The notes below the pieces were generated by a model. The model ran no database searches. It was not told the origin of the DNA and worked only from the letters and a program-made list of their open reading frames with translations. 64,000 nt of DNA from Acidobacteriota bacterium (lineage in GTDB: Bacteria; Acidobacteriota; CAIWXX01): the NCBI GenBank assembly GCA_040755995.1, contig JBFMAF010000023.1:192001-256000 (forward strand), given 5' to 3'. This document shows, piece after piece, positions 1,409-52,844 of this stretch; the first letter of the stretch is position 1, and the number at the start of each line of letters is the position of its first letter. The translations under genes and the position numbers were made by a program.

Positions 1409-1442
1409 CGGGCGGCGTCACGGCTCCACCGCCAACTGACAA

Positions 1443-19756: not shown

Positions 19757-19842
19757 AGCCCCGGAGGGGCGAGATATCGGTAGCCCAGGGCGTGAGCCCT
19801 GGGTTGCGACGTGCACAGGACCGGCAAGCCCCGTAGGGGCGG
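19757..19842. repeat. REP-like palindromic cluster
   Basis: AGCCCCGGAGGGGCG, then GTAGCCCAGGGCGTGAGCCCTGGGT, then AGCCCCGTAGGGGCG: three hairpins in an intergenic gap. Confidence 0.65.
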
Positions 19843-21224: not shown

Positions 21225-21253
21225 TTGACGAATCCAGGGTGCCAACCTATTCT
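21225..21253 (+). promoter_or_regulatory. Sigma70-type promoter of the hydrogenase operon
   Basis: TTGACG-N17-TATTCT preceded by an AT-rich stretch. Confidence 0.6.
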
Positions 21254-21311
21254 ACCCGGCAATGGCTGCGAATCCACCAATGCGGCTTTGCACTTTCAAC
21301 AGGAGGTGATT

Positions 21312-22421
21312 GTGGGCAAACCCATCGAATGCCTGACTCACTTTGACCGTGAAGAGGCACGGGGAGTGAGCCGGCGGGATTTCGTCAAGATCTGCACCAT
21401 GGCCGCTGCGTCACTCGGCTTACCGGCATGGGTCGGCGAGAAGATGGCGCAGGCCGCGGCCGCAGGGAAGCTGAGACCCTCGGTCGTCTGGCTGCACTTC
21501 CAGGAATGTACGGGGTGCACTGAGACTCTTCTCAGGACCACCCACCCGGCGTTGGCCGAGCTGATTCTGGATCTCATCTCACTCGACTACCACGAGACCG
21601 TATCGGCCGCCGCCGGAGATCAAATCGAGGAAAATCTGAAAAACACGATCGAAGCCAACGCAGGGAAGTTCATCTGCGTGATCGAGGGTGCCATACCCAC
21701 CAAGGACAACGGGATCTACTGCAAGATCGGAGGACGGACGGCTCTGGAGATCGCCAACGAAGTCGCCGAAAAAGCCGCTGCTATCATTGCTATTGGTTCA
21801 TGCGCGTCATTCGGCGGCCTCGCCGCGGCGGATCCGAATCCGACCGGAGCGGCGGGAGCCCCGCAGGTGCTCAAGGGCAAGCCCGTGGTGACGATTCCCG
21901 GATGTCCTCCGAATCCGTACAACTTCCTCGGAGTGGCCTTGCAGTACGCTACGTTGGGCAGCCTGCCGGCCCTGGACGAATTGGGGCGTCCGGCCTTCGC
22001 CTATGCGCGTACGATCCACGAGGACTGCCCGAGGCGGCCGCACTTCGACGCCGGCCGGTTCGCGGAGAAATTCGGCGACCAGGGGCATCGGGATGGGTAC
22101 TGCCTCTACAGGCTGGGATGCAAGGGCCCGGGCACGCACGCCAACTGCTCGATCCAGAATTTCAACGAGGTGGGCGCATGGCCGGTGGGTGTGGGGCACC
22201 CGTGCGCAGGGTGCACGGAACAGCAGCACGCGTTCCGCACGGCGCTCTTCACCACGATCGAGATCGAGCGGCCGACGCCGCCTGACACCTATCCGCCGAT
22301 CGAGGCCAAGCAGGGCGGCATCGGAACGCTGGCCGTGGGCTTCGCCGGTCTGGTTGGAGGCGCGCTCCTCGGAGCCGGCTACGCCACGTCCAGGAAGCTG
22401 GGAGAGGAGAAGGAGAAGTAG
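21312..22421 (+). CDS. hybO: [NiFe] hydrogenase small subunit (Hyb type)
   Basis: AGGAGG RBS and GTG start; Tat signal SRRDFVK; ECTGC, GSCA, PGCPP, CLYRLGCKGP; C-terminal TM. Confidence 0.92.
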   Translation: MGKPIECLTHFDREEARGVSRRDFVKICTMAAASLGLPAWVGEKMAQAAAAGKLRPSVVWLHFQECTGCTETLLRTTHPALAELILDLISLDYHETVSAAAGDQIEENLKNTIEANAGKFICVIEGAIPTKDNGIYCKIGGRTALEIANEVAEKAAAIIAIGSCASFGGLAAADPNPTGAAGAPQVLKGKPVVTIPGCPPNPYNFLGVALQYATLGSLPALDELGRPAFAYARTIHEDCPRRPHFDAGRFAEKFGDQGHRDGYCLYRLGCKGPGTHANCSIQNFNEVGAWPVGVGHPCAGCTEQQHAFRTALFTTIEIERPTPPDTYPPIEAKQGGIGTLAVGFAGLVGGALLGAGYATSRKLGEEKEK

Positions 22422-22422
22422 C

Positions 22423-23301
22423 ATGCCCATCGATCGACGCTCCGTTCTGAAAGGACTGGTAGCGGCGGGAGGGGTGGCTGTCGCGAGTGGTGCGAGCACG
22501 GTTGCGGCGCGGGAGCGCAAGGCGCCTCCGGATGACGCGGTTGGAATGCTCTATGACGCAACGCGCTGTATCGGCTGCAAGGCTTGTGTCGTGAAGTGCA
22601 AGGAGGCCAACGGATTGCCCCCGGATGCCCCGGACGGCCTGCACGATGCGCCGGTCGACCTCAACGCCTCGACAAAGAACATCATCAAGCTCTACAAGGA
22701 TGCCGACCGGATTTCGTACATGAAGGCGCAGTGCATGCATTGCGTCGATCCGGCGTGCGTATCGGTTTGCATGTTCGGCTCCTTGCAGAAGGGCGAGCTT
22801 GGCATTGTGACCTACAATCCCGACCGGTGCCTGGGCTGCCGCTACTGCCAGGTCGCCTGCCCGTTCAACGTTCCGAAGTTCGAGTGGTCGAAGGCGGTGC
22901 CGCAGATAGTGAAGTGCGAGATGTGCCGTCATCTGATCGCGAAGGGCGGGCAGCCGGCTTGCTGCGAGGTCTGCCCCCGGGAAGCAGTGATCTACGGGAA
23001 GCTCGCCGATCTGAAGGCAGACGCCAGGGATCGGCTGGCGAAGAACCCGGATCGATATGTGCAGAAAGTGTACGGCGATACCGACGGCGGAGGCACGCAG
23101 GTGATCTGTCTCTCGGCCGTCCCGTTCGAACTCCTCGGGCTTCCGGATCTCGGCGACGAGCCTGTGCCGAAGCTGTCCGAGACCATCCAGCACGGCGTCT
23201 ACTACGGCTTCATCCCGCCGGTGGTTCTCTATGGGGCACTGGGATTGGTGATGCTCCGCAACCGGAAGCGTGGAGGGACGGGTGAGGAGGTGAAGAAATG
23301 A
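22423..23301 (+). CDS. hybA: Hydrogenase Fe-S subunit HybA
   Basis: Tat signal DRRSVLK; CIGCKAC, CMHCVDPACVSVC, CLGCRYCQVACP, KCEMC; C-terminal TM. Confidence 0.92.
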   Translation: MPIDRRSVLKGLVAAGGVAVASGASTVAARERKAPPDDAVGMLYDATRCIGCKACVVKCKEANGLPPDAPDGLHDAPVDLNASTKNIIKLYKDADRISYMKAQCMHCVDPACVSVCMFGSLQKGELGIVTYNPDRCLGCRYCQVACPFNVPKFEWSKAVPQIVKCEMCRHLIAKGGQPACCEVCPREAVIYGKLADLKADARDRLAKNPDRYVQKVYGDTDGGGTQVICLSAVPFELLGLPDLGDEPVPKLSETIQHGVYYGFIPPVVLYGALGLVMLRNRKRGGTGEEVKK

Positions 23302-24485
23302 GCGAGCACGCACATCCTGCGCCCGTCGGCGGCGACATCCTCACGAAGCCGTTCAAGATCATTCTGGCGATCTTCGGTCTCGGCGCCGTGCTGATTCTCT
23401 GGCGCTACGCTACCGGGCTGGGCTCGGTCACTGCTCTGAACGACGGCTATCCCTGGGGAATCTGGATCGCGTTCGATGTCGTTGCGGGAACCGCTCTGGC
23501 CTGCGGCGGCTACGCCGTCGCCATTCTCTGTTACATCCTGAACAAGGGCGAGTACCATCCGCTGGTGCGCCCCGCGGTTCTGACGAGCGCACTGGGCTAC
23601 TCAGTCGCTGCCGTCGCCATCGCGGTTGACGTCGGCCGTTACTGGAACCTATATCTGGCCGCATTGCCGTGGAAGTGGAACCTCAACTCGGTTCTCCTCG
23701 AAGTGGCTCTGTGCGTCATGTCCTACATCGTCGTGCTGTGGATAGAGATGTCCCCTGCCTTCATGGAGGTCTGGAAGGACGGCAAGCAGCCGTTTCTGCG
23801 GCGGGCTTCTCAGAGCGCCTATCCGATTGTCAACAAAGCCCTGATCTGGATTCTCGCCCTCGGCATCCTGCTTCCCACGATGCACCAGTCGTCACTGGGC
23901 TCCGTCTTCCTGGTCTCTACGACGAAGCTCCACAAGCTCTGGCATACGCCATTGCTGCCGTTGCTTTTCCTGATCTCGTGCATCGCCCTCGGCTATGCCG
24001 CGGTCGTCTTCGAGGCGACTCTCTCGAGCATCGCGTTCAAGAAGGTGCGGGAGACGAAGATGTTGGCCTCGCTCTCGGGCGTCATGGCGATAGTGCTGGC
24101 CATCTACCTCGGTATTCGTTTTCTCGACCTGATCTTCCGTGGCAGGCTCGGGCTGATGTTCAAGCCGGATCTCTATGCGCTGTTTTTCTGGATCGAAGTG
24201 GTCCTGTTCGCCGCGCCCGCGCTCATGCTGATGTCGAAGGCGTCGCGGGCGAGCGCAGGAAACCAGTTCCGGGCGGCCATCTTGATGATGCTCGCCGGAG
24301 TCCTGTACCGCTTCGATGTTTATCTGATCGGGTACAACCCGGGTGCCGGCTGGTCCTACTTCCCGTCGATACCGGAGATGCTCATCACGTTCGGCGTGGT
24401 CTCGCTCGAGATCATGGCCTACATTTACATCGTGAAGCGATTCCCGGTTCTCGCCGGCGGCACCGCAACAAGTTCGCCACGGTAG
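23298..24485 (+). CDS. hybB: Hydrogenase membrane subunit HybB (NrfD family)
   Basis: YPWGIWIAFDV, ALACGGY, LPTMHQSSLG; about 10 TM segments. Confidence 0.92.
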   Translation: MSEHAHPAPVGGDILTKPFKIILAIFGLGAVLILWRYATGLGSVTALNDGYPWGIWIAFDVVAGTALACGGYAVAILCYILNKGEYHPLVRPAVLTSALGYSVAAVAIAVDVGRYWNLYLAALPWKWNLNSVLLEVALCVMSYIVVLWIEMSPAFMEVWKDGKQPFLRRASQSAYPIVNKALIWILALGILLPTMHQSSLGSVFLVSTTKLHKLWHTPLLPLLFLISCIALGYAAVVFEATLSSIAFKKVRETKMLASLSGVMAIVLAIYLGIRFLDLIFRGRLGLMFKPDLYALFFWIEVVLFAAPALMLMSKASRASAGNQFRAAILMMLAGVLYRFDVYLIGYNPGAGWSYFPSIPEMLITFGVVSLEIMAYIYIVKRFPVLAGGTATSSPR

Positions 24486-24495
24486 GAAGGAGCTC

Positions 24496-26190
24496 ATGAG
24501 AATCACCGTAGATCCAATCACAAGAATAGAAGGCCACCTGCGCATCGACTGCGAAGTCGACGGCGGGGCTGTCCGGGACGCCTGGTCCTCCGGGCAGATG
24601 TGGCGTGGAATCGAAGTCATGCTCAGGGGGCGCGATCCGCGCGACGCGCAATTCTTCACTCAGCGGTCCTGCGGCGTGTGCACGACGGTTCACGCGCTGG
24701 CCTCCGTGCGCGCCGTCGAGAACGCACTCGACATGGAGATCCCGCTCAACGCGCAGTACATCCGAAACATGATCGTCCTGGCCCACGCACTGCACGATCA
24801 CATCGTCCACTTCTATCACCTGTGCGCGCTCGACTGGGTGGACGTCGTATCCGCATTGCAGGGCGATCCCGCCAAGGCATCGAGTCTCGCCGAGAGCCTC
24901 TCGCCGTGGCCGCGCAACAGCAAGAAGGAGCTCGAGGCGGTCAAGGCGAAGCTGAAGGCATTCGTGGACAGCGGGCAGCTCGGCCCCTTCGCCAACGGCT
25001 ACTGGGGACACCCGGCATACAAGCTTCCGCCCGAAGTCAACCTGCTGGCGGTGGCTCACTACCTGCAGGCGCTCGAGTACCAGCGAATCCCGAACATGGC
25101 CGTCGGCATCCTCGGCGGCAAGACTCCACATATCCAGAACCTTACGGTCGGTGGGGTGTCCAATGCCGTGAACCTGGACAACGCCGCGGCCCTCAATATG
25201 GAGAGACTCTTTTGGGTGAAGGACCTGCTCGAACAGACCGCCGCGTTCGTTCAGCAGGTGTACTTCATCGACATGTGCGCCGTCGGGGCCATGTACGCGG
25301 ACTGGGTCAAGTACGGCGCGGGTGTCAAGAACTACCTCGCAGTCCCCGACCTGCCGCTCGACACCAAGGGAACCAAATTCGACATGCCTGGCGGCGTGAT
25401 CGTCGACGGCAATCTGGAGGGTGTGAAGCCAATCGCCAGCTTCCAGGACACGTTCTTCAAGGACAACGTCAAGGAGTCCATCGCGTGCTCCTGGTACGAC
25501 GGCAACTGGTCGCGCCATCCGTACGAAGAGGAGACCGCACCCAAGTACAGCGACTACGACCCGAGCGGGAAGTACTCGTGGGTCAAGGCTCCTCGCTTCG
25601 ACGGCCGGCCGATGCAGGTGGGACCGCTTTCGCAGGTGCTGGTGGCTTTCGCACAGGGAGACGAGCTCACCACGACATGGGCCGTCAAGGCGCTCGAAAC
25701 CGTGGGCGCCATCGCGGGGGCCAAGCTGACTCCCGCCATCCTCCATTCCACAATCGGAAGGATCGCTGCACGCTCCATCCGGTGCGCCGTCATGTCCGAG
25801 CTGGCGCTGAAACACTGGCAGATGCTCGTCGAGAACATCGGCAAGGGCGATACGGCGACCTTCAACGCGCCGACGTTCCCGAGCGGCGAACAGAAGGGCT
25901 TCGGCTTCCACGAAGCGCCTCGCGGGACCCTCTCTCACTGGATCGTGATCCGCGACGGCAAGATCGCGAACTACCAGCAGGTGGTACCGTCGACATGGAA
26001 CGCTGGACCGCGCGACGAGAAGGGGCAGAAGGGGCCGTACGAGGCGTGCCTCGTCGGCAATCCCATCGCCGATCCCAAGCGCCCGCTCGAAGTGCTGCGC
26101 ACGATCCACTCGTTCGACCCGTGCCTCGCGTGCGCCATACACACGCACGATGCGGAAGGGAACGAGGTGGGGCAGGCAAGGGTGCTGTAG
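24496..26190 (+). CDS. hybC: [NiFe] hydrogenase large subunit (group 1c-like)
   Basis: DPITRIEGH; L1 motif QRSCGVCTTVH; L2 motif SFDPCLACAIH followed by a cleavable tail. Confidence 0.95.
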   Translation: MRITVDPITRIEGHLRIDCEVDGGAVRDAWSSGQMWRGIEVMLRGRDPRDAQFFTQRSCGVCTTVHALASVRAVENALDMEIPLNAQYIRNMIVLAHALHDHIVHFYHLCALDWVDVVSALQGDPAKASSLAESLSPWPRNSKKELEAVKAKLKAFVDSGQLGPFANGYWGHPAYKLPPEVNLLAVAHYLQALEYQRIPNMAVGILGGKTPHIQNLTVGGVSNAVNLDNAAALNMERLFWVKDLLEQTAAFVQQVYFIDMCAVGAMYADWVKYGAGVKNYLAVPDLPLDTKGTKFDMPGGVIVDGNLEGVKPIASFQDTFFKDNVKESIACSWYDGNWSRHPYEEETAPKYSDYDPSGKYSWVKAPRFDGRPMQVGPLSQVLVAFAQGDELTTTWAVKALETVGAIAGAKLTPAILHSTIGRIAARSIRCAVMSELALKHWQMLVENIGKGDTATFNAPTFPSGEQKGFGFHEAPRGTLSHWIVIRDGKIANYQQVVPSTWNAGPRDEKGQKGPYEACLVGNPIADPKRPLEVLRTIHSFDPCLACAIHTHDAEGNEVGQARVL

Positions 26191-26289
26191 AGCCGGTCGA
26201 GGGCAAACAGGGTGGGCTCGGGACGTCGGGCGTCCCGAGCCCGGCCCATCTTCTTCACCTGCGAGCGGGGCACTTCTGGGCACCAACCC

Positions 26290-26841
26290 GTGAATCGAAT
26301 CAGGATCATCGGCATCGGAAATGTCTTGATGGGTGACGACGCGCTCGGCCCATACATGGTCCAGATTCTCGAGAGCGCATATGCCTTTCCCGAGGATGTG
26401 ACGTTGATCGATGCCGGAACGCCGGGACTCGACCTGACCGCTTTCTTCATGGGCACACAGGCGGTGATAGTGGTAGACACGGTGCGGGCCAAGGGCGATG
26501 CGGGTGAAGTGCGGCTCTATCGTCGCGAGGAACTGCTCCGGAGTCCGCTCGGGGTTCGGCTGAGCCCGCATGATCCCGGGCTGAACCAGGCGCTGCGCGC
26601 GGCGGAATTCCACGGGGACGCGCCGCGAGACGTCCTGCTCGTGGGCGTGATTCCCGAACGCGTTGACACGGGCGCGGGACTGAGTCAGGCTGTGCGGCGT
26701 GCGCTCCCGCGAGTCGAAGCGGAGATACTGCGCGAGCTGGCGCGATTCGGCGTAGTCCCGACTGTGCGCAAGCCCAGAAAGGAGCCCGACATCTGGTGGG
26801 AGCGAGAACCCGGTGCACCCAGGCAAGAGCCGGCGACCTGA
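26290..26841 (+). CDS. hybD: Hydrogenase maturation protease
   Basis: IIGIGNVLMGDDALG, DAGT, IVVD, SPH motifs. GTG start is approximate. Confidence 0.88.
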   Translation: MNRIRIIGIGNVLMGDDALGPYMVQILESAYAFPEDVTLIDAGTPGLDLTAFFMGTQAVIVVDTVRAKGDAGEVRLYRREELLRSPLGVRLSPHDPGLNQALRAAEFHGDAPRDVLLVGVIPERVDTGAGLSQAVRRALPRVEAEILRELARFGVVPTVRKPRKEPDIWWEREPGAPRQEPAT

Positions 26842-27441: not shown

Positions 27442-28353
27442 ATGGATACGTTGCGTGACAGGTACTTGAACCCGTTCACGGACTTCGGGTTCAAGAAGAT
27501 ATTCGGCACGGAGCTGAACAAGGACTTGCTCATCGATTTCCTGAACGAGGTGATACGCGAGCGTGGCCGAATCACGGACGTGAACTACCGTGTCACCGAG
27601 CAACTTGGCATCATGGAGGCGGACAGGCGTGCGATATTCGACATCTACTGCCAGAGCGAAAGCGGGGAGAGGTTCATAGTAGAGTTGCAGAAGGCCAAGC
27701 AGAACTACTTCAGGGACCGGAGCATATACTACGCCACATTTCCAATCCAAGAGCAGGCGCAGAAGGGAGAGTGGGATTACAGGCTCGATCCCGTCTACAT
27801 GGTAGGAGTCCTCGACTTTGTGTTCAACGACGAGCACCGGGACAAGACGGTCGTAACCGAAGTGAGGCTGATGGACACCCGAACAAGAGAAGTCTTCTAT
27901 GACAAGCTGGCGTTCATCTACCTGCAGATGCCCAATTTCACGAAGGTTGAGGAGCAGCTCGAGACGCATTTCGACAAGTGGCTGTATGTTCTCAAGCATC
28001 TGCCGGACCTCCAGGAGCGGCCTGCGAGGCTTCAAGAACGCGTCTTCGCGCGTTTGTTCGAGATTGCGGAGATCGCGAAGTTCACAGCCGAGGAGAGGCA
28101 CGCCTACGAGGACAGCCTGAAGCATTACAGAGACCTGAAGAACACGATCGATACCGCGCGCGAAGAGGGGCGTGCTGAAGGAGAGCAGATCGGATTGGAG
28201 AAAGGCCGGGCCCAAGGCGAGCATGACGGAATCAAGATGGGCAAGATCGAGGTCGCTCGCGCACTGCTGAGCCGGGGCATGAATGAGGCGGAAATCTCAC
28301 GGCTGACTGGGCTGCCCCAGGAGGAGATCGAACGTATCGCGAAGGGCCGGTAA
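27442..28353 (+). CDS. Rpn family PD-(D/E)XK nuclease / putative transposase
   Basis: NPFTDFGFKKIFG, FDIYC, IVELQ, RSIYY; C-terminal GxxxG repeats and a TGL..EEI tail. Confidence 0.9.
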   Translation: MDTLRDRYLNPFTDFGFKKIFGTELNKDLLIDFLNEVIRERGRITDVNYRVTEQLGIMEADRRAIFDIYCQSESGERFIVELQKAKQNYFRDRSIYYATFPIQEQAQKGEWDYRLDPVYMVGVLDFVFNDEHRDKTVVTEVRLMDTRTREVFYDKLAFIYLQMPNFTKVEEQLETHFDKWLYVLKHLPDLQERPARLQERVFARLFEIAEIAKFTAEERHAYEDSLKHYRDLKNTIDTAREEGRAEGEQIGLEKGRAQGEHDGIKMGKIEVARALLSRGMNEAEISRLTGLPQEEIERIAKGR

Positions 28354-28436: not shown

Positions 28437-28622
28437 GCTTCATCGCTCCGAGGCCGCGCCTCGCTAGCAGGCTTCGGCAGAAAAAGATGTTGCGATTGAG
28501 TCGATGCTGCAGCGGCGCGTCATTGGCTCTGAAGTCCCACGGTAGTCACTGTCGACTCGCGACGCGAGGCGTGGTGAGAGCGGTCCTGCACGCTTCATCG
28601 GTCTGAGGCCGCGCCTCGCTAG
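28437..28622. repeat. 31-bp direct repeat (28437-28467 and 28592-28622) between convergent rpn and HNH genes
   Basis: GCTTCATCGnTCnGAGGCCGCGCCTCGCTAG, 29 of 31 identical; the first copy overlaps a hairpin at 28426-28456. Confidence 0.7.
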
Positions 28623-29161
28623 TAGTCGCTGTCGAGCTCGATGTTCCAGTACAGGTAGTCCCGCCAGCATTCCGGCGTACTGTGTATGGACAGTTTCACC
28701 GTCACGCGAGGCAGCCAACCCGGCCGCTCCGGCTTCCTCACGAGCTTCATCCCGGACTGAGAAGGCGTACGCCCGCCCTTCTTGCGATTGCATTCGATGC
28801 AGCAGGTCACGATGTTCTCCCACCGCTTCTCGCCGCCCAGAGAAACCGGGATCACGTGGTCGAAGGTAAGATCCTCTGTGGAGTACTTCTGGCCGCAGTA
28901 CTGGCAGCGGTGGTCGTCGCGGGCGTAGATGTTTGCCCGCGAGAACTTGACCCACCTTGCTGGAGGCTTGACCTTGATGAACCGCAGCAGTCGCAGCACC
29001 GCCGGAAGCTTGAAGGTGATCGAGATCGAGCGGATCTCCTGCTCGTACTCCTCGACCACCTCCACCTTGCCCTGGCAGAGCAGACGGATGGCCTTCTGCC
29101 ACGCGATGATCTTCAGCGGCTCATAGGTGGCATTCAGTAGCAGCGCCGGCGCGTAACTCAT
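28619..29161 (-). CDS. HNH endonuclease (McrA-like)
   Basis: LLLNATYEPL, RDDHRCQYCG, TFDHVIP, WENIVTCCIECNRKKG. Confidence 0.9.
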   Translation of the reverse strand: MSYAPALLLNATYEPLKIIAWQKAIRLLCQGKVEVVEEYEQEIRSISITFKLPAVLRLLRFIKVKPPARWVKFSRANIYARDDHRCQYCGQKYSTEDLTFDHVIPVSLGGEKRWENIVTCCIECNRKKGGRTPSQSGMKLVRKPERPGWLPRVTVKLSIHSTPECWRDYLYWNIELDSDY

Positions 29162-29185
29162 CGGAGATGCCTCACAAGCGGACAC

Positions 29186-29214: not shown

Positions 29215-29576
29215 GATTCAGGCCAACAAACCAACGATCTACCGGGCCTGCAGCCGGCGAAGATCCGCTGCTTCGATGCCCGCAGCATTCCTCCTGCCTC
29301 GCGACGGATAGCCGATCTTCGCAAGCCGGCGGCGGCGAATCCTCTGTTCCGAGAGCTCAGTGGCACGGCACCCAATGTCCAGATTTCCCACCTGTGCGTC
29401 CGCAATCGCAGACGCAAGATCGTTGCAATCGGGCCGTCGGACGAACTGAAGCGAACCAGCGAACCGGTGGGACTTGAACCGTGCCTCCGATGGGTCTAAG
29501 ATGGCACCGGCGATCGAGGGAACCTGATAAGCCCGCGCCGAAATCATAGTGCACTGGCGAGGCGTGGTTTGCATAC

Positions 29577-32015
29577 ATGAGTAGGTTTGAGGCGGATGTC
29601 AAAGTCCTGGACGTTTCGTATTTCAATCACACGCAGAAGAGGAACGGTGAAGAGGAAAAATTCCCCGTTCTCGAGATATTCGGGCGCACCAGGGAAGGCC
29701 AGAGCATCACGCTGCTCTACCCGCGCTTCTATCCGTACTTCTACATCCTGAATCCGACTGCGCAGGCGCAGAAGGAGCTCTCCGGCGACGCCCGGGTCAG
29801 GGCGGTCGAGCCGGCTGTGCTCCTGCACGATTCCAAGGAGGCACCGGCTCTCAAGGTGACTCTGTATGTACCGGGCGACACGCCGGAGTACCGGGACCGC
29901 TACGGTGGAATCGCCGCCGACATTCTTTTCCGCTTCCGCTTCATGTTCGACATGGATCTGGGCTACTGCATTCACGCGCGCGGAAGCGAGCTTGCGAACC
30001 GGCAGATGGGAGGCCGCACGTACCTCTCTTCGACTCTCGTGCACCTGGAGGAAGCCGGGGAGATCCCGTACTTCACCTCGCCGCTGAACATCCTCTCGTT
30101 CGACATCGAGAACGTCATCGGAGGCGAGATCCTGTGCATCGGCCTGGTCTCTCAGTTCGGCGAGAAGATGGAGACCCGTGTGCTGGACGGGGGCGAGCGG
30201 AAGGTGTTGGAGGACTTCATACGCATCGTCAAGACCGAGGACTACGACATCCTCTCGGGATACAACATCTGCAACTACGACCTGCCGTATATGGAGATGC
30301 GCGCGCAGAAGCTGGGCATCAACATGGATATCGGGCGAAATCTGCGCTCGATGCTCGTCAGGGAAAAAGGCGGCGGCAGCCGGAACGGCGAGAAGCGTTT
30401 TGTCGACAAGGGGACCAGCAAGACCGTCGAGATAGCCGGGCGGGTAGTGGTGGACAGCTGGTACTTCGCGCGCAAGGAGAAGCGTCCGAAGCGCGAGACG
30501 CTTTCAGCAATGGCGCAGATGATCCTGGGCAAAGACAAGCTCCCGATGGACACGTTGAAGCTGAAGGAGGAATGGGCGAAGGACGCCGAGCGCGTGAAGG
30601 AGTATTGCCTGCAGGACACCGTACTATCGCACGAGATTCTGGAAAAGATCCGGGTGGTGCAGAAATACGAGGCGCTTGCATCGGTTGCGCGGTTGTCTCT
30701 GGCCGATGCCTTTTGCGACCGCAACAGCGTGTATATCGATTCGCTGTTCATTCGGGAGGCCGACCGGGAGCACGTGGCGGTGCCCAACATGCGTCGTTCG
30801 ACCAACGGGGATGAGGAATCGATCGAAGGCGGTTACGTGCACCAACCCTCTCCGGGCCTCTATGACCGCGTGATCGTCTTCGACTTCGCGTCGCTGTATC
30901 CGAGTGTCATCCTGGAGAACAACATCTGCGCGACCACCCTCTCGGAGAATGGCACTATCGTGTCTCCGCTGGGGGTTCGCTTCCTGGCTCCTGACGTGAA
31001 GCAGGGGATGCTGCCGCGTATCATGCGGCGCCTGTTGCAGGCCCGCAGGGAGAGCAAGAAGCTGATGAAGCAGGCGGCCAGTCCGGAGGAGAAGGACTTC
31101 TACAACCGGCTGCAAAACGCCCAGAAGATCCTCGCCAATGCGCACTTCGGCGTCTTCAGCTCCAGGTTCTACCGCTTCACCGACCAGCGAATCGGCGGGT
31201 CGATTACAGCTTTCGCCCGGCAGGGCACCAAGGGTCTCATCGAAACGCTGACGAAGGACGGCCACAAGGTCGTCTACTCGGACACAGATTCGCTCTTCGT
31301 CGTCTCCCCGCACACCGACCTGCAGAAGACGATCGAGTTCGGTGAGACGGTCGTGGAGCGGTTCAGCCATGGAGACATTCGTCTGGAGATGGAGAAGGTG
31401 ATGGATCCGCTCTTCCTGAGCTCGGCGAAAAAAAGGTACTTCGGCAAGATCGTCTGGCCGGGCCCCGGCGAGATCTTCGTGCGCGGTTTCGAGACCAGGC
31501 GCGGTGACAGCTTCGACATGCAGACGAAGAGCCTGGAGATGCTATTCGAGTACATCCTGAACCGCGACCCGGACGGTGCCGTCGAATTCTGCCGGCAAGT
31601 CCTCCGCGATCTCGACCAGGGCAATGTTGCCCTTGAAGACCTGGTCATATCGAAGACCGCGGCCGATCCCAACACGTACAAGGTGATCGAGGAGGAGACC
31701 GAGTCATCCCTGTTCGGCGTGAAGACCGTGACGAAGCGCCGTGTGGCCGACAGCCTGCCCATCGTTCAGGCCGTCGAGAAGGCGCAGAACCTCGGCGAAG
31801 TCATCTCGCCCGGGATGAAGGTCAGCTGGATCGTCGTCGACTCCCGCATGACCCCGCAGCGAGTAGAGCCCTACATCGACGGCAAGAAGTTCAACTACAC
31901 GCCCGATTACGAGTACTACCGAGAGCGCCTTCTCGACAGCTACCTGCGCGTGCTCGACGTCTTCGACGTCCGGAGAGATGACCTGGCCGAATCGCGCCAG
32001 CTTTCGCTGTTCTAG
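29577..32015 (+). CDS. polB: Family B DNA polymerase with 3'-5' exonuclease and archaeal-style N-terminal domain
   Basis: Exo motifs FDIE, YNICNYD, YCLQD; polymerase motifs DFASLYPS, KILANAHFG, YSDTDS, KKRY; C-terminal QLSLF. Confidence 0.92.
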   Translation: MSRFEADVKVLDVSYFNHTQKRNGEEEKFPVLEIFGRTREGQSITLLYPRFYPYFYILNPTAQAQKELSGDARVRAVEPAVLLHDSKEAPALKVTLYVPGDTPEYRDRYGGIAADILFRFRFMFDMDLGYCIHARGSELANRQMGGRTYLSSTLVHLEEAGEIPYFTSPLNILSFDIENVIGGEILCIGLVSQFGEKMETRVLDGGERKVLEDFIRIVKTEDYDILSGYNICNYDLPYMEMRAQKLGINMDIGRNLRSMLVREKGGGSRNGEKRFVDKGTSKTVEIAGRVVVDSWYFARKEKRPKRETLSAMAQMILGKDKLPMDTLKLKEEWAKDAERVKEYCLQDTVLSHEILEKIRVVQKYEALASVARLSLADAFCDRNSVYIDSLFIREADREHVAVPNMRRSTNGDEESIEGGYVHQPSPGLYDRVIVFDFASLYPSVILENNICATTLSENGTIVSPLGVRFLAPDVKQGMLPRIMRRLLQARRESKKLMKQAASPEEKDFYNRLQNAQKILANAHFGVFSSRFYRFTDQRIGGSITAFARQGTKGLIETLTKDGHKVVYSDTDSLFVVSPHTDLQKTIEFGETVVERFSHGDIRLEMEKVMDPLFLSSAKKRYFGKIVWPGPGEIFVRGFETRRGDSFDMQTKSLEMLFEYILNRDPDGAVEFCRQVLRDLDQGNVALEDLVISKTAADPNTYKVIEEETESSLFGVKTVTKRRVADSLPIVQAVEKAQNLGEVISPGMKVSWIVVDSRMTPQRVEPYIDGKKFNYTPDYEYYRERLLDSYLRVLDVFDVRRDDLAESRQLSLF

Positions 32016-48936: not shown

Positions 48937-49521
48937 TCACCCCTTCCGCAGTTCGACCAGGATCAGCTTGACCGTGGCCTTGAGCGTTTCGAAGACGCCC
49001 AGGCCCTGAGGGGCGACGGCCTCGATGACGGGCTCGCCCTTCTTCATCAGCTCCGCCGCCAACACCTGTGCAGGCGCAGCTGATGGCAGGTCGCGCTTGT
49101 TCAGTTGGAGCACGTACGGGATGGCCATTAGGTCGAAACCCTGGCTCTTGAGGTTGATGTCGAGGTTCTGGAGGCTTTCGATATTGGCCTCCCGGCGTTC
49201 CTCCTGCGAATCCGCCACGAAGATCACGCCGTCCACCCCCTTCAGGATGAGCCTGCGGCTCGCGTCGTAGAACACCTGTCCGGGGACGGTGTAGAGGTGG
49301 AAGCGAGTCTTGAAGCCGCGGACGGTGCCGAGGTCGAGGGGGAGGAAGTCGAAGAAGAGAGTGCGGTCGGTCTCGGTGGCGAGCGAGATAAGTCGTCCCT
49401 TGGCGTTGGGGTGGGTCTTGTCGTAGATGTACTGAAGGTTGGTGGTCTTGCCGCAGAGGCCGGGGCCGTAGTATACGATCTTGCAGTTGACTTCCCGTGC
49501 GGCGTAATTGATGAACGTCAT
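48937..49521 (-). CDS. mglA: Small Ras-like GTPase MglA
   Basis: [36 protein letters not shown]. Confidence 0.95.
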
Positions 49522-49539
49522 CGAAAGGTCGTGACGGGG

Positions 49540-50040
49540 TCAGGCCGAGAAGAGGTTGTCGATGTCCTCGTCGGTGATCTCCGAGAATGGCGATTCGAAC
49601 CCCGTCCCCAGCGCCTCCTTCTCTTTCTCTGCCTTGGCGAGAATCTGGTCGAACACATGGGTCAACTCCACGCTGGCCTTCTTTACGCGCAGGCGAACGA
49701 GACCCAGGCTGCTGCGGTCATCGAAGATGACCACGAGAATGATGCGCTGGGCCACGATGGTGATGTGGATGTTGTCCTTCTGGCCTTCGCCGTGGATGAC
49801 CAGAAACTCCTTCTCGCCAATCAGCTTCGCTAGCCCATCGGATGCGGCCACGTTGCCTGCCGTCAGTGAGGCCAATGAGGTCGTATCGAGGTTCTCGATG
49901 TCCCCGTGGGCGGCGATTGGTTGGCCATTCTTGTCCACGAGGAACACGATCTTCGCATTTGCATCGCTGCGCAGCCGAGCGATGATCTGCTTGAGAAGAT
50001 TGAACTCCTCCTCGTACACGACCATGTTTGGAGAGAGCAT
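49540..50040 (-). CDS. mglB: Roadblock/LC7 GAP MglB
   Basis: LVDKNGQ, TSLASLTAGNVAA, SLGLVRLRV, SEITDEDIDNLF. Confidence 0.95.
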   Translation of the reverse strand: MLSPNMVVYEEEFNLLKQIIARLRSDANAKIVFLVDKNGQPIAAHGDIENLDTTSLASLTAGNVAASDGLAKLIGEKEFLVIHGEGQKDNIHITIVAQRIILVVIFDDRSSLGLVRLRVKKASVELTHVFDQILAKAEKEKEALGTGFESPFSEITDEDIDNLFSA

Positions 50041-51485: not shown

Positions 51486-52640
51486 TCACCGCCCCTCCTT
51501 AGGTGCAGCCGCTTCGATCGCCTTCAGAGCCTCGCCGATGGGCAGGAGTTTGCGGAAGTGGCACATGTTCAGCAGTCCGGCCTCGATGAGGTATCGAGGG
51601 TTGTGGATGAACTTCAGGTTGGCGTCGATCTGCATGAGGAACTGGAGGTGGCGGAGGAGGTCGGCGTCCTGCGGGAAGAGCCCGGCGACGTCGCGGAGCC
51701 CCGCGATGTCCTCGCTGTAAACGTCGAGAATCTTGTCGGGGGCCCGAGCTACTTTCACGATCAGCACCTGGCGCAGGTAGTTTTCGAAGTCGTGCAGGAA
51801 ATTGATGAGATCGTAGCCGCTGTCTACGATCTGGGCGATCTCGTCGAGGATGGCGCCGCCGTTCTGCTCGGCCAGTGCCTGCGCGACGCGCCGGTGCACG
51901 TCCGCGGGCATGATGTTGAGGATGACATTGACCTCGTCGTCGCGGACGCTGTCGCCGCAGTAGGCGACGAGCTGATCCAGGAGCGAGATGCCGTCGCGCG
52001 AGCTGCCGGCGGCCAGGCGCGCGACCTGGTAGAGAGCGCGCTCGGTGATCGTGACCGACTCCTTCTCGCATATCGATTTCAGGTGGTCGACGAGTGTCGG
52101 AATGGCGAGCGGACGGAAGAAGAAGACCTGGCATCGCGACAGGATCGTCGCCGGGACCTTGCGGTACTCGGTGGTGGCGAAGATGAAGACGATCCAGGAG
52201 GGCGGCTCTTCGAGCGTCTTCAGCAGGGCGTTGAATGCCGCCTGCGTGACCATGTGCACTTCGTCTATGATCACGACCTTGTATCGATCGCGGAACGGCG
52301 TGTACCGAACGTCCTCGCGCAGCTCGCGGATCTGATCCACACCTCCGCTGCTCGCGCCGTCGATCTCCATTATGTCCACGGCGTTCCCGGCCAGCGCCTC
52401 CTTGCAGCTCGTGCACTCGTTGCACGGGGATGCGGTGGGGCCGCTGGCGCAGTTGAGTGCTTTGGCGAGCAGCCGCGCCGTGGTGGTCTTGCCGATGCCT
52501 CGCATTCCAGAGAAGAGATACGCGTGGTGGATCCGCCGCCGTTCGAGACTGTTGCGAAGTGTCGTGACGATCGGCTCCTGGCCCACCACCTCCTCGAAGG
52601 ACTGCGGGCGATGCTTGCGCGCGAGTGCCAGATAGCTCAT
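51486..52640 (-). CDS. dnaX: DNA polymerase III clamp loader gamma/tau (short form, 384 aa)
   Basis: LARKHRPQSF, GMRGIGKTT, PCNECTSC, IDEVHM, LLKTLEEPP, SRC. Confidence 0.95.
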   Translation of the reverse strand: MSYLALARKHRPQSFEEVVGQEPIVTTLRNSLERRRIHHAYLFSGMRGIGKTTTARLLAKALNCASGPTASPCNECTSCKEALAGNAVDIMEIDGASSGGVDQIRELREDVRYTPFRDRYKVVIIDEVHMVTQAAFNALLKTLEEPPSWIVFIFATTEYRKVPATILSRCQVFFFRPLAIPTLVDHLKSICEKESVTITERALYQVARLAAGSSRDGISLLDQLVAYCGDSVRDDEVNVILNIMPADVHRRVAQALAEQNGGAILDEIAQIVDSGYDLINFLHDFENYLRQVLIVKVARAPDKILDVYSEDIAGLRDVAGLFPQDADLLRHLQFLMQIDANLKFIHNPRYLIEAGLLNMCHFRKLLPIGEALKAIEAAAPKEGR

Positions 52641-52731: not shown

Positions 52732-52844
52732 GGCGGTGGCCCCCGGTTGACCGCGGCACATGAGGCGTTCTGCTTACCGTTGCTTCCTTCCGGACCTGGC
52801 GGGGTTCACAGTGCCTCATTGCACGGGACCGGAGTCCACCCTCC
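52732..52844 (-). ncRNA. ffs: Small signal recognition particle RNA (4.5S)
   Basis: Minus-strand GTGAACCCCGCCAGGTCCGGAAGGAAGCAACGGTAAGC helix-8 core within a long hairpin; upstream of dnaX. Confidence 0.93.

What the first reader, a model, noticed from the sequence alone, without database searches (positions are those of the whole stretch)
29577..32015. Archaeal-style family B DNA polymerase carrying a bacterial beta-clamp motif
Seen: the N-terminus (LDVSY, FYPYFY, PGDTPEYR, AADILF..RF..D) follows the archaeal PolB N-terminal domain rather than E. coli Pol II. Exo and polymerase carboxylates are intact, but motif B reads NAHFG (usually NSxYG) and motif C reads YSDTD (usually YGDTD). The protein ends in QLSLF, an exact QL[S/D]LF beta-clamp consensus. 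From recall, FYRFT..IG.SIT and RGFE.RR.DSF resemble Thermoplasmatota PolB. Positions matching the archaeal uracil pocket (V93, E111, P115) appear substituted. No phage genes flank it. Inference: an archaea-to-bacteria transfer retooled for DnaN, possibly with altered fidelity.
Basis: partly seen in the sequence, partly recalled or inferred. Interest (0 to 1): 0.75.

Follow-up and report, generated by a model that had tools for sequence, protein, structure and literature searches.

The report
Archaeal DNA polymerase domesticated in bacteria
A soil-type bacterium carries a DNA-copying enzyme of archaeal descent that now ends in the bacterial sliding-clamp docking motif, in a lineage that lacks the usual bacterial repair polymerase and whose normal replication polymerase looks dead, so this enzyme may have taken over core DNA synthesis.

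Summary
The 812-aa ORF at 29577-32015 is real. It is a complete family B DNA polymerase with intact exonuclease and polymerase sites. It is not bacterial Pol II: it scores 183 bits against a curated cut-off of 570.

It belongs to a monophyletic 16-member bacterial clade, found in an Acidobacteria-labelled class and in Ca. Lindowbacteria. That clade sits inside an archaeal-type clade that includes the Thermoplasmatota PolBs. The exact donor is unresolved.

All 16 bacterial members end in Q[L/M]xLF, at the place where the archaeal relatives carry PIP-like boxes. All six carrier genomes have DnaN, and none has PCNA above cut-off. The contig is solidly bacterial: dnaA-dnaN, dnaX-ybaB-recR and bacterial SRP RNA are on it, and codon usage matches the neighbours.

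The wider context was unexpected:
- All 6 of 6 carrier genomes lack a Pol I polymerase domain and keep only a stand-alone 5'-nuclease. In the phylum sample, 389 of 401 genomes have Pol I.
- In the window's class (3 of 3 genomes), the DnaE1 ortholog has lost its catalytic aspartate motif.
- In the same class, DnaX lacks the tau C-terminus.
- The only other intact alpha-type polymerase there is DnaE2-like.

The PolB is therefore probably a core polymerase rather than an accessory one. It likely replaces Pol I, and in this class it may be the replicase. Clamp binding and function are inferred, not shown.

The parts
29577..32015 (+). polB: 812-aa family B DNA polymerase of archaeal (Thermoplasmatota-like, 'B4'/Delta-like clade) descent, including its stop codon
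   Evidence: ORF. Pfam PF00136 and PF03104. AF2 model pLDDT 92.5, pTM 0.88. Foldseek top 50 are archaeal PolB or Pol delta. Phylogeny.
30099..30113 (+). Exo I motif FDIEN (D176, E178)
   Evidence: Invariant D and E in A1 and A3. Group table.
30252..30290 (+). Exo II motif (N230, D235), with a clade-specific Cys232
30597..30626 (+). Exo III motif YCLQD (Y343, C344, D347). The Cys is typical of the Delta-like clade.
   Evidence: Clade feature as described in PMC7544198, section 18.
30876..30938 (+). Polymerase motif A, DFASLYPS...NNIC.TT (D436, C451)
31122..31157 (+). Polymerase motif B, QKILANAHFGVF. His523 is invariant and unique to the bacterial clade. Phe524 replaces the usual Tyr in the Acidobacteria-type subclade only.
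   Evidence: His in 16 of 16 bacterial members, against Phe in 35 of 42 of the Thermoplasmatota group. Tyr in 10 and Phe in 6 of the bacterial members.
31269..31298 (+). Polymerase motif C, YSDTDS (D569, D571)
   Evidence: Ser is the majority state in the archaeal relatives (24 of 42).
31998..32012 (+). C-terminal QLSLF, a putative beta-clamp-binding motif. It sits at the position of the proximal PIP-like box of the archaeal relatives.
   Evidence: Tail pLDDT is low, i.e. flexible. Complex prediction with the genome's own DnaN gave weak support.
29496..29504 (+). CTAAGATGG, a -10-like element conserved upstream of polB in the three genomes of the class
   Evidence: Alignment of the upstream regions, sequence. 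Its function is inferred only.
51486..52640 (-). dnaX: a short (384 aa) gamma-like clamp-loader subunit with domains I-III only and no tau C-terminal domains
   Evidence: Pfam. Stop-to-stop frames are 426-457 aa in the 3 class genomes, against 540-786 aa in 21 relatives.
52737..52835 (-). Bacterial small SRP RNA, a marker that the contig is bacterial
   Evidence: Rfam, 76.1 bits.

Best explanation
The gene encodes a catalytically complete, proofreading family B DNA polymerase. Its ancestor came from an archaeon (or an archaeal virus) carrying a Thermoplasmatota-like PolB, the 'B4' group at the root of the Pol-delta-like clade.

In bacteria the protein was cut back to end right after its proximal PIP-like box. 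That box became Q-L-x-L-F, the bacterial beta-clamp motif. The enzyme is therefore inferred to ride on DnaN, loaded by the bacterial gamma complex.

It is not an optional Pol II-like accessory. It is the only high-fidelity polymerase left in these genomes. All carriers have lost the Klenow part of Pol I and keep only a stand-alone 5'-nuclease, so PolB most likely does gap filling in Okazaki-fragment maturation and in excision repair. This would resemble Pol delta/PolB working with FEN1 on PCNA.

In the window's own class the DnaE1 ortholog has lost its catalytic aspartates and DnaX has lost its tau domains. There, PolB is also the best candidate for bulk chromosome replication.

Shown: sequence, fold, phylogenetic position, motif distribution and gene presence/absence. 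Inferred: clamp binding, the cellular role and the direction of transfer.
For: Identity and origin:
- establish a family B polymerase of archaeal/Pol-delta type.
- On the curated Pol II model NF004421 it scores 182.8 bits against a cut-off of 570. True Pol II genes of the same phylum score 742-760 bits (4 of 4 tested).
- The bacterial clade is monophyletic. FastTree: 16 of 16 rows, support 100. IQ-TREE LG+C20: 9 of 9 rows, support 100.
- It lies inside a 61-row clade (support 100) whose named members are all Thermoplasmatota.

Bacterial residence:
- The window is C23:192001-256000 of a 339-kb contig. That contig also carries dnaA-dnaN.
- The window itself holds dnaX-ybaB-recR, bacterial SRP RNA and Acido-Lenti-1 RNA.
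- GC3 is 0.83, like the neighbouring genes.
- The gene is present in 3 of 3 genomes of the GTDB class and in Ca. Lindowbacteria records with bacterial neighbours such as a TonB-dependent receptor.

Clamp switch:
- Q[LM]xLF at the C-terminus in 16 of 16 bacterial members, 0 of 42 and 1 of 36 archaeal-type relatives. The relatives end in PIP-like boxes.
- 13 of 17 other PolBs of the phylum end in QxxLF; the 4 of them scored on the curated model are true Pol II.
- DnaN is present in 6 of 6 carriers. PCNA above cut-off is present in 0 of 6.
- Complex prediction of the PolB tail with the genome's own DnaN gave weak support: score 0.54, best of 3 controls 0.04. The pass mark was reached by 116 of 157 solved complexes and 2 of 215 mismatched pairs. 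A score at or below 0.60 was seen in only 18 of those 157 solved complexes and in both mismatched pairs that passed. The runs agree in at least 62% of contacts, and partner pLDDT is at least 61. This is a textbook-like pair, so the result may reflect memory of solved structures.

Core role:
- PF00476 (Pol I polymerase domain) is absent from 6 of 6 carriers. It is present in 389 of 401 genomes of the phylum sample and in 365 of 371 high-quality genomes. The 3 carriers are among the 12 genomes without it.
- tblastn with two full-length Pol I proteins hits the window's genome only over residues about 3-290.
- A stand-alone FEN is present in 6 of 6 carriers, with frames of 304-366 aa. In the 3 class genomes it ends in a QxxLF-like motif.
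- Canonical DnaE1 scores 327-366 bits on PF07733 in 22 of 22 relatives. The class genomes reach only 236-242 and 127-153 bits.
- The DnaE1-like copy lacks PDxDxDF in 3 of 3 genomes and has degenerate GRGS, YRPGP and FNKSHS motifs. It is a long-branch sister of the DnaE1 clade (support 96) and is only 50-52% conserved across the three genera.
- The other copy nests among accessory DnaE2-like copies (support 98 and 99) and lies beside an ImuB-like gene.
- There is no third alpha gene in the whole genome.
- DnaX frames are 426-457 aa in the class, against 540-786 aa in 21 relatives.
- Across the three genera, PolB is the second most conserved of the six proteins compared (DnaE2-like copy 77%) and the most conserved among the replisome proteins: 72-74%, against DnaN 50-54% and FEN 57-60%.
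Against: - There is no biochemical or expression evidence.
- Clamp binding rests on a motif plus one weak, possibly memory-driven prediction.
- QxxLF at the very C-terminus also occurs in two archaeal-type relatives: P0085 (Poseidoniia) and P0148. The motif could therefore be partly inherited.
- Pol I loss does not require this PolB. In the phylum sample, 9 non-carriers also gave no PolA hit, 3 of them at least 90% complete. A 2026 survey finds about 4% of bacteria without PolA, mostly with a solo 5'-nuclease (PMC12926913, section 15).
- The Lindowbacteria-type carriers keep an alpha subunit with intact catalytic motifs. The replicase idea therefore applies to one class only.
- The DnaE2-like enzyme could be that class's replicase.
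- The carriers form only two lineages, so the co-occurrences amount to at most two independent events.
- Completeness of the three Lindowbacteria-type genomes is not given.
- The archaeal identity of the unnamed basal lineages rests on their PIP-like termini alone.
Confidence: 0.6

Rival explanations
1. It is an accessory, Pol II-like repair or translesion/restart polymerase, a functional analogue of E. coli Pol II. It happens to be of archaeal descent. Replication and Okazaki-fragment maturation are done by the remaining C-family enzymes, namely the DnaE2-like copy in the class and the divergent DnaE in Lindowbacteria.
For: - Bacterial PolBs described so far are accessory (PMC12926913, introduction passage).
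- It has the same terminal motif as the PolBs of the phylum that end in QxxLF, four of which score as true Pol II.
- None of the 6 carriers has a canonical Pol II, so it could simply fill that niche.
- The Lindowbacteria-type DnaE keeps its catalytic motifs.
- Bacteria can live without the Pol I polymerase if a 5'-nuclease is present (PMC12926913, section 15).
Against: - It does not explain why 6 of 6 carriers lack PolA.
- It does not explain why the class's DnaE1 ortholog has lost its catalytic motif and DnaX its tau domains.
- PolB is more conserved than DnaN or FEN.
- No LexA-type box of the recalled GTTCN7GTTC form lies upstream. This is a weak test.
Confidence: 0.25
2. The terminal QLSLF is only a truncated remnant of the archaeal PIP-like box. 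The enzyme works without a clamp, or with some other partner.
For: - The motif sits at the homologous place of the archaeal proximal box.
- 20 of 42 proteins of the Thermoplasmatota group have QxxLF somewhere in their last 60 residues, and 2 archaeal-type relatives end in QxxLF.
- The complex score is only 'weak support'.
Against: - Leu (one Met) at +1 and termination at or one residue after the Phe are found in 16 of 16 bacterial members and in 1 of 78 archaeal-type relatives.
- The motif converges on the ending of 13 of 17 other PolBs of the phylum, of which the 4 tested are true Pol II.
- The hosts have DnaN and no PCNA.
Confidence: 0.08
3. It is a polymerase of a phage, plasmid or other mobile element that sits in the chromosome.
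For: An HNH endonuclease and a PD-(D/E)XK transposase-like gene lie immediately upstream. The HNH gene is also near polB in one sister genome, at 84% identity.
Against: - No relative was found on viral contigs using clade-specific patterns.
- The best phage hit is at most 25% identical and the best plasmid hit at most 28%.
- No phage or mobile module appears in any of the 6 neighbourhoods.
- Synteny is kept within the Lindowbacteria lineage.
- Codon usage matches the host.
Confidence: 0.03
4. It is an assembly or binning artefact: an archaeal fragment joined to a bacterial contig.
For: These are draft genomes. The nearest non-bacterial relatives are archaeal.
Against: - The window is part of a 339-kb contig that also carries dnaA-dnaN. 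dnaX-ybaB-recR and bacterial SRP RNA lie within 21 kb of polB.
- Base composition and GC3 are uniform across the region.
- The gene is only 40-43% identical to any archaeal protein.
- It recurs in 5 other bacterial genomes.
Confidence: 0.02

Closest known systems
[quoted passage not shown] 2020, PMC7544198)
   Same: - These are the best non-bacterial hits, at 40-43% identity over the full length.
- They fall in the same 61-row clade (support 100).
- They share FDIEN in Exo I, Cys in Exo III and motif A, YSDTDS, Ala at the E111-equivalent position, and the same domain order.
   Different: - The bacterial proteins form their own long-stemmed clade outside the named Thermoplasmatota subclade.
- They lack the Lys-rich tail with the terminal LTLEDFF-type box and end in Q[LM]xLF instead.
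- They have His in motif B and have lost the P115-equivalent residue.
- They live with DnaN, not PCNA.
E. coli-type DNA polymerase II (bacterial group G1)
   Same: A family B polymerase with an active proofreading domain, about 780-810 aa, with a C-terminal QxxLF clamp motif. 13 of 17 other PolBs of the phylum end this way, and the 4 of them tested are true Pol II.
   Different: - Only about 25-29% identical.
- Fails the curated Pol II model, 183 bits against a cut-off of 570.
- PDB E-value is 7e-22, against 1e-51 for archaeal PolB and Pol delta.
- Not among the top 50 structural matches.
- NCBI's name 'DNA polymerase II' for two clade members is therefore a misnomer at family level.
Bacterial G2 PolBs, derived from archaeal PolB2 (PMC7544198; PMC12926913)
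   Same: A precedent for an archaeal PolB transferred to and fixed in bacteria (passages seen).
   Different: G2 has an inactivated exonuclease and is thought to act in a mutasome. The present clade keeps all exonuclease and polymerase residues and stems from a different archaeal group.
Pol delta / archaeal PolB with FEN1 on PCNA (Okazaki-fragment maturation; established knowledge)
   Same: A proofreading B-family polymerase plus a separate flap nuclease, each with a C-terminal clamp-docking peptide. Here these are PolB with QLSLF and, in the class, a solo FEN with QTGLF/QSGLF/QGDLF. Structural likeness to Pol delta reaches TM 0.85.
   Different: The clamp is the bacterial beta dimer, and the nuclease is the bacterial Pol I-type 5'-nuclease rather than FEN1. 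Whether the two proteins work together is an inference.
Bacteria without Pol I that retain a solo 5'-nuclease (about 4% of species; PMC12926913, section 15)
   Same: Loss of the Pol I polymerase with retention of the 5'-nuclease.
   Different: In the sections of that paper that I read, no B-family replacement is proposed. The paper also states that every species has a DnaE-type catalytic subunit, whereas this class has only a degenerate DnaE1 and a DnaE2-like copy.

Membership tests
Family B DNA polymerase | Pfam DNA_pol_B and DNA_pol_B_exo1 above their gathering scores | tested here: met
   187.1 and 55.4 bits, against cut-offs of 23.
Family B DNA polymerase | Exo I-III carboxylates, and the motif A and motif C aspartates | tested here: met
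   D176, E178, D235, D347, D436 and D571 are invariant, and D569 is nearly invariant, in 76 sequences. All are invariant in the 16 bacterial members.
Family B DNA polymerase | The N-terminal/exo/palm/fingers/thumb fold | tested here: met
   AF2 pLDDT 92.5. Foldseek TM is 0.79-0.85 to KOD, 9N and Pol delta.
Bacterial DNA polymerase II (G1; NCBIfam NF004421 equivalog) | Score at or above the curated cut-off of 570 bits | tested here: not met
   182.8 bits. Four Pol II genes from the same phylum score 742-760 bits.
Archaeal B4 / Delta-like clade (PMC7544198) | Groups with Thermoplasmatota PolBs in a phylogeny | tested here: inconclusive
   It is inside the same 61-row clade (support 100) but outside the 30-row Thermoplasmatota subclade (support 95), and the base of the clade is unresolved. 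The paper's group table (S5) was not in the text held, so its own assignment of the Lindowbacteria sequence is unknown.
Archaeal B4 / Delta-like clade (PMC7544198) | Conserved Cys in Exo I, Exo III and motif A | tested here: inconclusive
   C344 (Exo III) and C451 (motif A) are present. Exo I has Asn, as do 40 of 42 of the Thermoplasmatota group.
Archaeal B4 / Delta-like clade (PMC7544198) | PCNA-directed PIP-type C-terminus | tested here: not met
   0 of 16 bacterial members carry a PIP-like box. All end in Q[LM]xLF.
Beta-clamp client proteins (QL[SD]LF / QxxLF motif) | The motif lies in an exposed, flexible terminus | tested here: met
   QLSLF forms the last 5 residues. Mean pLDDT of the last two 10-residue blocks is 69 and 43. 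The motif is conserved in 16 of 16 members.
Beta-clamp client proteins (QL[SD]LF / QxxLF motif) | Physical binding to the DnaN pocket | tested here: inconclusive
   The complex prediction gave weak support: 0.54 against a best control of 0.04, with the caveats given. No experiment was possible.
Archaeal uracil-sensing PolB (Tgo/Pfu type; pocket residue list recalled) | Pocket residues Y7, P36, Y37, V93, E111, I114, P115, F116 | tested here: inconclusive
   Y15, P53, Y54, I116 and F118 are kept. V93->T, E111->A and P115->L are changed. E111->A is shared with 39 of 42 archaeal relatives. Function cannot be judged from sequence.
Bacterial replicative Pol III alpha (DnaE1), tested on the genome's own DnaE1 ortholog | Curated DnaE1 model NF004226 at or above 1002 bits, and the PDxDxDF catalytic motif | tested here: not met
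   550 and 573 bits, against 1433 bits for a relative's DnaE1. The motif is absent in 3 of 3 class genomes.

The most novel reading that the evidence does not exclude
In this class of three genera, labelled Acidobacteria, the archaeal-derived PolB has replaced the C-family enzyme as the chromosomal replicase. It would run on the bacterial beta clamp, the gamma-only clamp loader and DnaB. DnaE1 would survive only as a catalytically dead, fast-evolving relic or scaffold. Pol I would be reduced to a clamp-tethered flap nuclease.

This would be the first bacteria known without a C-family replicative polymerase. It would also be a natural hybrid replisome, and a living example of non-orthologous replicase displacement across domains. 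The Lindowbacteria-type genomes have PolB, no Pol I and an intact but divergent DnaE. They would represent the intermediate stage.
Probability: 0.4. Interest if true: 0.97.

Novelty: new variant of a known kind. Interest (0 to 1): 0.88.

Why it matters
Replicative polymerases are the textbook case of non-homologous core machinery: family C in bacteria, families B and D in archaea and eukaryotes. How such a replacement could ever happen is an old open question.

This case is a fully intact archaeal-type PolB fixed in two bacterial lineages. Its clamp-docking peptide has been converted in place from PIP-like to beta-type. Its hosts have lost Pol I. In one lineage they also show a decayed DnaE1 and a tau-less clamp loader.

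At the least, this adds a fourth, independently acquired bacterial PolB group. [quoted passage not shown] It also gives a clean natural experiment in re-targeting a polymerase from PCNA to beta.

At most, it makes replicase displacement directly testable with a handful of recombinant proteins.

Tried and rejected
- **LexA box.** A LexA-type box (GTTCN7GTTC, a consensus recalled from memory) gave 53 matches in the window against 48.6 expected, and none in the polB upstream region. This gives no evidence of SOS control.
- **P0131 as sister.** P0131 appeared as sister of the bacterial clade in FastTree (support 98). The link dissolved under the mixture model. Its contig could not be fetched.
- **Naming the unlabelled basal lineages.** 20 proteins were looked up and none carried a taxon name.
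- **Conserved gene cassette.** Only loose synteny exists within the class (HNH in one genome, FolB in another), and none between the two lineages.
- **Viral contigs.** None were found, but only two clade-specific peptide patterns were scanned.
- **Metagenome scan with the clade alignment.** Only 2 loci were found, both Lindowbacteria-type.
- **Sequencing runs for coverage or expression.** None was listed and no RNA holder was listed. This is not evidence either way.
- **MCM search.** Uninformative. The family also rings in all 10 bacterial controls, and the own-genome hits are weak partial AAA+ matches.
- **DnaX in Lindowbacteria-type genomes.** Only marginal hits of 22-25 bits, so tau length there is undetermined.
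- **Kazlauskas et al. supplement.** The Lindowbacteria sequence is in their starting set (Table S2). The table with group assignments was not in the stored text, so I cannot say how they classified it.
- **Earlier notes of this scan.** Nothing relevant.
- **Literature searches**. No paper was found that describes a Thermoplasmatota-like PolB in bacteria or a bacterium without an active DnaE1/DnaE3. These searches cover only the open-access and bioRxiv library held.


Full report
**The observation.** The window holds an uninterrupted ORF at 29577..32015 (+) of 812 aa. Pfam assigns DNA_pol_B (187 bits) and the family B exonuclease domain (55 bits).

In a 76-sequence alignment the exonuclease carboxylates (D176, E178, D235, D347) and the polymerase carboxylates (D436, D571, with D569 nearly invariant) are conserved. 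In the 16 bacterial clade members all of them are invariant. An AlphaFold2 model built on that alignment is confident (pLDDT 92.5, pTM 0.88). Only the last dozen residues are poorly defined. Its 50 best Foldseek matches in the PDB are all archaeal PolBs (KOD, 9N, Tgo, Pfu, P. abyssi, P. calidifontis) or Pol delta, with TM up to 0.85. E. coli Pol II is not among them.

**Not Pol II.** By sequence the best solved relatives are yeast Pol delta (5.6e-52) and Thermococcales PolB (about 1e-51). E. coli Pol II scores only 7e-22. On NCBI's curated Pol II equivalog model the protein scores 182.8 bits against a cut-off of 570. Four PolBs from other genomes of the same phylum score 742-760 bits. Two clade members are nevertheless named 'DNA polymerase II' in NCBI.

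**Relatives.** A search of 5.8 billion clustered proteins gave three tiers of hits:
- five proteins at 70-75% identity, one of them from a record titled Acidobacteria bacterium;
- ten proteins at 53-55% identity;
- after a gap, about 80 proteins at 38-46% identity.

Every named member of the third tier is Thermoplasmata, Thermoplasmatales, Methanomassiliicoccales, Poseidoniia or Thalassarchaeaceae. Pol delta follows at 27-30%.

A scan of one genome per GTDB species found six loci. Two are in Acidobacteria-titled records, two in Candidatus Lindowbacteria records and two in records titled 'bacterium'. A scan of 241 million metagenome records added only two more, both of the Lindowbacteria type. 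The clade is therefore rare.

**Phylogeny.** I started from the 267 proteins that the two searches returned.
- I kept those of 700-960 aa, plus Pol delta hits under 1250 aa. That gave 183.
- I dropped 11 irregular 'src' entries, 25 near-duplicates (at least 80% identical) and one fragment. That left 157 rows.

In FastTree the 16 bacterial proteins form one clade (support 100), inside a clade of about 95 rows that holds all the Thermoplasmatota hits.

For a mixture-model IQ-TREE run (LG+C20+F+G4, quick search, SH-aLRT only) I reduced this to 78 rows: 9 bacterial, 21 from the Thermoplasmatota group, 31 unnamed relatives and 17 outgroup rows.
- The bacteria are again monophyletic (support 100, stem 0.54).
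- They lie inside a 61-row clade (support 100) that is separated from B3-like, Pol delta and a further group.
- The base of that clade is a polytomy of about eight lineages.
- The 30-row subclade with all the named Thermoplasmatota (support 95) excludes the bacteria.
- An apparent sister seen in FastTree (P0131) did not hold.

The descent from this archaeal-type clade is therefore well supported. The precise donor is not. Kazlauskas et al. 2020 (PMC7544198; I read passages and section 18) call the Thermoplasmatota enzymes group B4, at the root of a Pol-delta-like clade marked by Cys residues in Exo I, Exo III and motif A. The present protein has the Exo III and motif A Cys, and Asn in Exo I, as do 40 of 42 of the Thermoplasmatota group. 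That paper's main text recognises only three bacterial groups, G1 to G3. A Lindowbacteria member is in its starting dataset (Table S2). The table of group assignments was not in the stored supplement.

**Is it really in a bacterium?**
- The window is C23:192001-256000 of a 7.7-Mb assembly in 56 contigs, 99.84% complete with 3% contamination.
- The window itself holds a bacterial small SRP RNA, an Acido-Lenti-1 RNA, a dnaX-ybaB-recR cluster, a [NiFe] hydrogenase, FtsEX and a PBP-type transglycosylase.
- dnaA-dnaN lie on the same contig.
- G+C is flat across the window. The gene's GC3 of 0.83 equals that of its neighbours.
- The gene is present in all 3 genomes of the GTDB class, which is also the whole family and three genera.
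- In the other carriers its neighbours are ordinary bacterial genes, including a TonB-dependent receptor. Synteny is kept within the Lindowbacteria type.
- Phage records hold nothing above 25% identity and plasmids nothing above 28%. A scan of viral contigs with two clade-specific patterns found nothing.

**The clamp motif.** All 16 full-length bacterial members end in Q-[L/M]-x-L-F. In 15 the Phe is the last residue, and one has a single extra residue.

Of 42 proteins of the Thermoplasmatota group, none has this ending. Instead, 32 end in a hydrophobic-x-acidic-aromatic box (LTLEDFF type) after a Lys-rich tail, and 20 have a QxxLF somewhere in their last 60 residues. Of 36 other archaeal-type relatives, 15 carry a QxxhxxAr PIP-like box in their last 20 residues. 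Only one (P0148) ends in QLKLF. One Poseidoniia protein (P0085) ends in QSRLF.

The distance from the conserved VFG/VFD element of the thumb to the Gln differs by only one residue between the bacterial and archaeal proteins (read). The bacterial motif therefore looks like an in-place conversion of the proximal PIP-like box, combined with loss of the tail.

The same ending occurs on 13 of 17 other PolBs of the phylum; the four of them scored on the curated model are true Pol II. All six carrier genomes have DnaN, and none has a PCNA match above cut-off.

A complex prediction of PolB residues 700-812 (with the 16-row alignment) against the genome's own DnaN gave 'weak support': score 0.54 against a best of 3 controls of 0.04. 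The tool's calibration is as follows:
- The pass mark was reached by 116 of 157 solved complexes and by 2 of 215 mismatched pairs.
- A score of 0.60 or below was seen in only 18 of those 157, and in both mismatched pairs that passed.
- The runs agree in at least 62% of contacts, and partner pLDDT is at least 61.

Clamp-peptide complexes have been solved, so the pass may reflect memory.

**Other motifs.** I took Tgo-Pol numbering from the alignment printed and tabulated key columns by group.
- Motif C (YSDTDS) is the majority state of the archaeal relatives.
- In motif B, Ala in place of Ser is common in the relatives (17 of 42).
- The following His is present in 16 of 16 bacterial members, against Phe in 35 of 42 relatives.
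- The Tyr-to-Phe change is confined to the six Acidobacteria-type proteins.
- Of the uracil-pocket residues (a list recalled from memory), Y7, P36, Y37, I114, F116 and R119 have equivalents.
- V93 is Thr in 15 of 16 bacterial members and in 11 of 42 relatives.
- E111 is Ala in the bacteria and in 39 of 42 relatives.
- P115 is Val or Leu in the bacteria but Pro in 39 of 42 relatives.

Whether uracil sensing or fidelity is altered cannot be told from sequence.

**The unexpected context: no Pol I.** I profiled the genome's polymerases and found no family A polymerase domain (PF00476) in the window's genome. None was found in the five other carriers even at E <= 1. All 10 bacterial control genomes were positive.

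In an even sample of the phylum, 389 of 401 genomes have the domain, and 365 of 371 high-quality genomes. These counts include three unpublished genomes (G048, G151, G025), each positive. The conclusion does not depend on them. The 12 negatives include the three carriers (98-100% complete). Of the other nine, six are under 90% complete.

As an independent check, I ran tblastn with two full-length Pol I proteins from relatives against the whole genome. They match only over residues about 3-290, the 5'-nuclease, at 42% identity (E 1e-61 and 1e-65). Nothing better than E of about 2 was found for the Klenow part.

All six carriers have this stand-alone nuclease, with frames of 304-366 aa. In the three class genomes it ends in QTGLFDDD, QSGLFDDENE or QGDLFGDTD, which is again a QxxLF-like motif. 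The Lindowbacteria-type nucleases do not end this way.

**The unexpected context: Pol III.** The genome has exactly two alpha-subunit homologs. Both pass only the superfamily model. They fail the curated DnaE1 model (711 and 550 bits, cut-off 1002) and the error-prone DnaE2 model (591 and 281 bits, cut-off 939). Controls behave as expected: a relative's DnaE1 scores 1433 bits and a relative's DnaE2 scores 1324 bits on their respective models.

On PF07733, 22 of 22 other relatives have a 327-366-bit copy in a DnaE1-length open frame, 1156-1243 aa in 19 of them. The other three frames (771, 862 and 1027 aa) are shorter. Fifteen of the 22 also have a second copy at 249-290 bits. The three class genomes reach only 236-242 and 127-153 bits.

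In an alignment with 12 canonical DnaE1 sequences:
- The weaker copy lacks the PDxDxDF motif in 3 of 3 genomes. It reads MAIDV..SN, FSIEV..FF and PAVEV..SH.
- Its GRGSxxGS, YRPGP and FNKSHS motifs are degenerate.
- Its PHP motif is kept.

In a tree this copy is a long-branch sister of the DnaE1 clade (support 96, stem 1.22). It is only 50-52% identical among the three genera. The stronger copy keeps its catalytic motifs but nests (support 98 and 99) among the accessory second copies of relatives that also have a canonical DnaE1. It lies next to a Y-family ImuB-like gene.

The Lindowbacteria-type genomes have one divergent alpha subunit (151-185 bits on PF07733, 760 bits on the DnaE1 model) with intact catalytic motifs.

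DnaX in the window is 384 aa and has domains I-III only. Stop-to-stop frames are 426-457 aa in the three class genomes, against 540-786 aa in 21 relatives. The tau domains that bind alpha and DnaB are therefore missing. DnaB itself is present.

Across the three genera the identities are: PolB 72-74%, the DnaE2-like copy 77%, DnaN 50-54%, FEN 57-60% and the degenerate DnaE1 50-52%. Between the two host lineages PolB is 55% identical, while DnaN is 26% and FEN 35%. This points to strong constraint, to spread of the already adapted gene between the two bacterial lineages, or to both.

**Reading.** The gene presence/absence pattern and the motif states are shown. The functional reading is inferred.

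PolB is the only proofreading, catalytically intact, clamp-motif-bearing polymerase in these genomes. The simplest account is a non-orthologous displacement in two steps:
1. An archaeal-type PolB was acquired and re-targeted to beta. It made the Klenow part of Pol I dispensable in both lineages.
2. In the window's class it also took over bulk replication. DnaE1 and the tau part of DnaX then decayed.

A 2026 survey of complete bacterial genomes (PMC12926913; I read sections 15 and 18 and further passages) makes these statements:
- Bacterial PolBs are accessory.
- PolA is found in about 96% of species, and most of the rest carry a solo 5'-nuclease.
- Every species has a DnaE1 or DnaE3 catalytic subunit.

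The lineage studied here falls outside those statements. This is presumably because it is known only from draft genomes.

My literature searches found no description of such a clade. They cover only the open-access and bioRxiv library held.

**Caveats.**
- The co-occurrences rest on at most two independent lineages.
- Completeness of the Lindowbacteria-type genomes is unknown.
- Pol I loss also occurs without this PolB.
- The DnaE2-like enzyme could be the class's replicase.
- Clamp binding is not demonstrated.
- The archaeal identity of the unnamed basal lineages rests on their PIP-like termini alone.

Noticed in passing
L038 (G000:C49:88176-91646), ORF 1090-1983 (-); also L041 and L042: The stand-alone 5'-nuclease (a Pol I N-terminal domain homolog, 297 aa) of the three class genomes ends in a QxxLF-like motif (QTGLFDDD, QSGLFDDENE, QGDLFGDTD). 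This may be a beta-clamp tether. The Lindowbacteria-type nucleases lack it.
   Followed up: partly
G000:C33:98700-101600 (-), with orthologs in L061 and L062: A DnaE1-derived protein of 921-987 aa has lost the PDxDxDF catalytic motif but keeps its PHP motif. It is intact as an ORF in three genera although only 50-52% conserved. It may be a pseudo-polymerase with a structural or nuclease role.
   Followed up: partly
L008, L010, L011, L012 (genomes G028, G246, G144, G043): Four small-genome (2.4-2.8 Mb) members of the phylum carry yet another archaeal/eukaryotic-type PolB of about 802 aa. It passes TIGR00592 but fails the Pol II model. Its thumb end resembles Thermococcales PolB, and it has no clamp motif at the C-terminus. 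These genomes do have Pol I.
   Followed up: partly
window 27442-28353 (+) and 28619-29185 (-): A PD-(D/E)XK (PDDEXK_2) transposase-like gene and an HNH endonuclease gene lie directly upstream of polB. The HNH gene recurs near polB in one sister genome at 84% identity. The transposase-like gene does not recur.
   Followed up: partly
window 29496-29504: A short element, CTAAGAT[G/T]G (-10-like), is shared by the polB upstream regions of all three class genomes. Otherwise these regions are poorly conserved.
   Followed up: no
window 19757-19803 (-): An Acido-Lenti-1 sRNA (Rfam RF01687, 47.6 bits) lies between a radical SAM gene and a glycosyltransferase gene.
   Followed up: no
window 21225-26841 (+): A [NiFe] hydrogenase cluster: small subunit, NrfD-like membrane protein, large subunit and HycI-type maturation protease.
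   Followed up: no
window 48937-50040 (-): A Roadblock/LC7 protein lies next to a weak Arf/Ras-like GTPase hit. This looks like an MglB/MglA-like pair, just downstream of recR.
   Followed up: no
genomes G297, G070, G141: Three further genomes of the phylum, 92-100% complete, gave no Pol I polymerase-domain hit and do not carry this PolB. G070 has a different PolB hit. I did not check whether these are assembly gaps or real losses.
   Followed up: no
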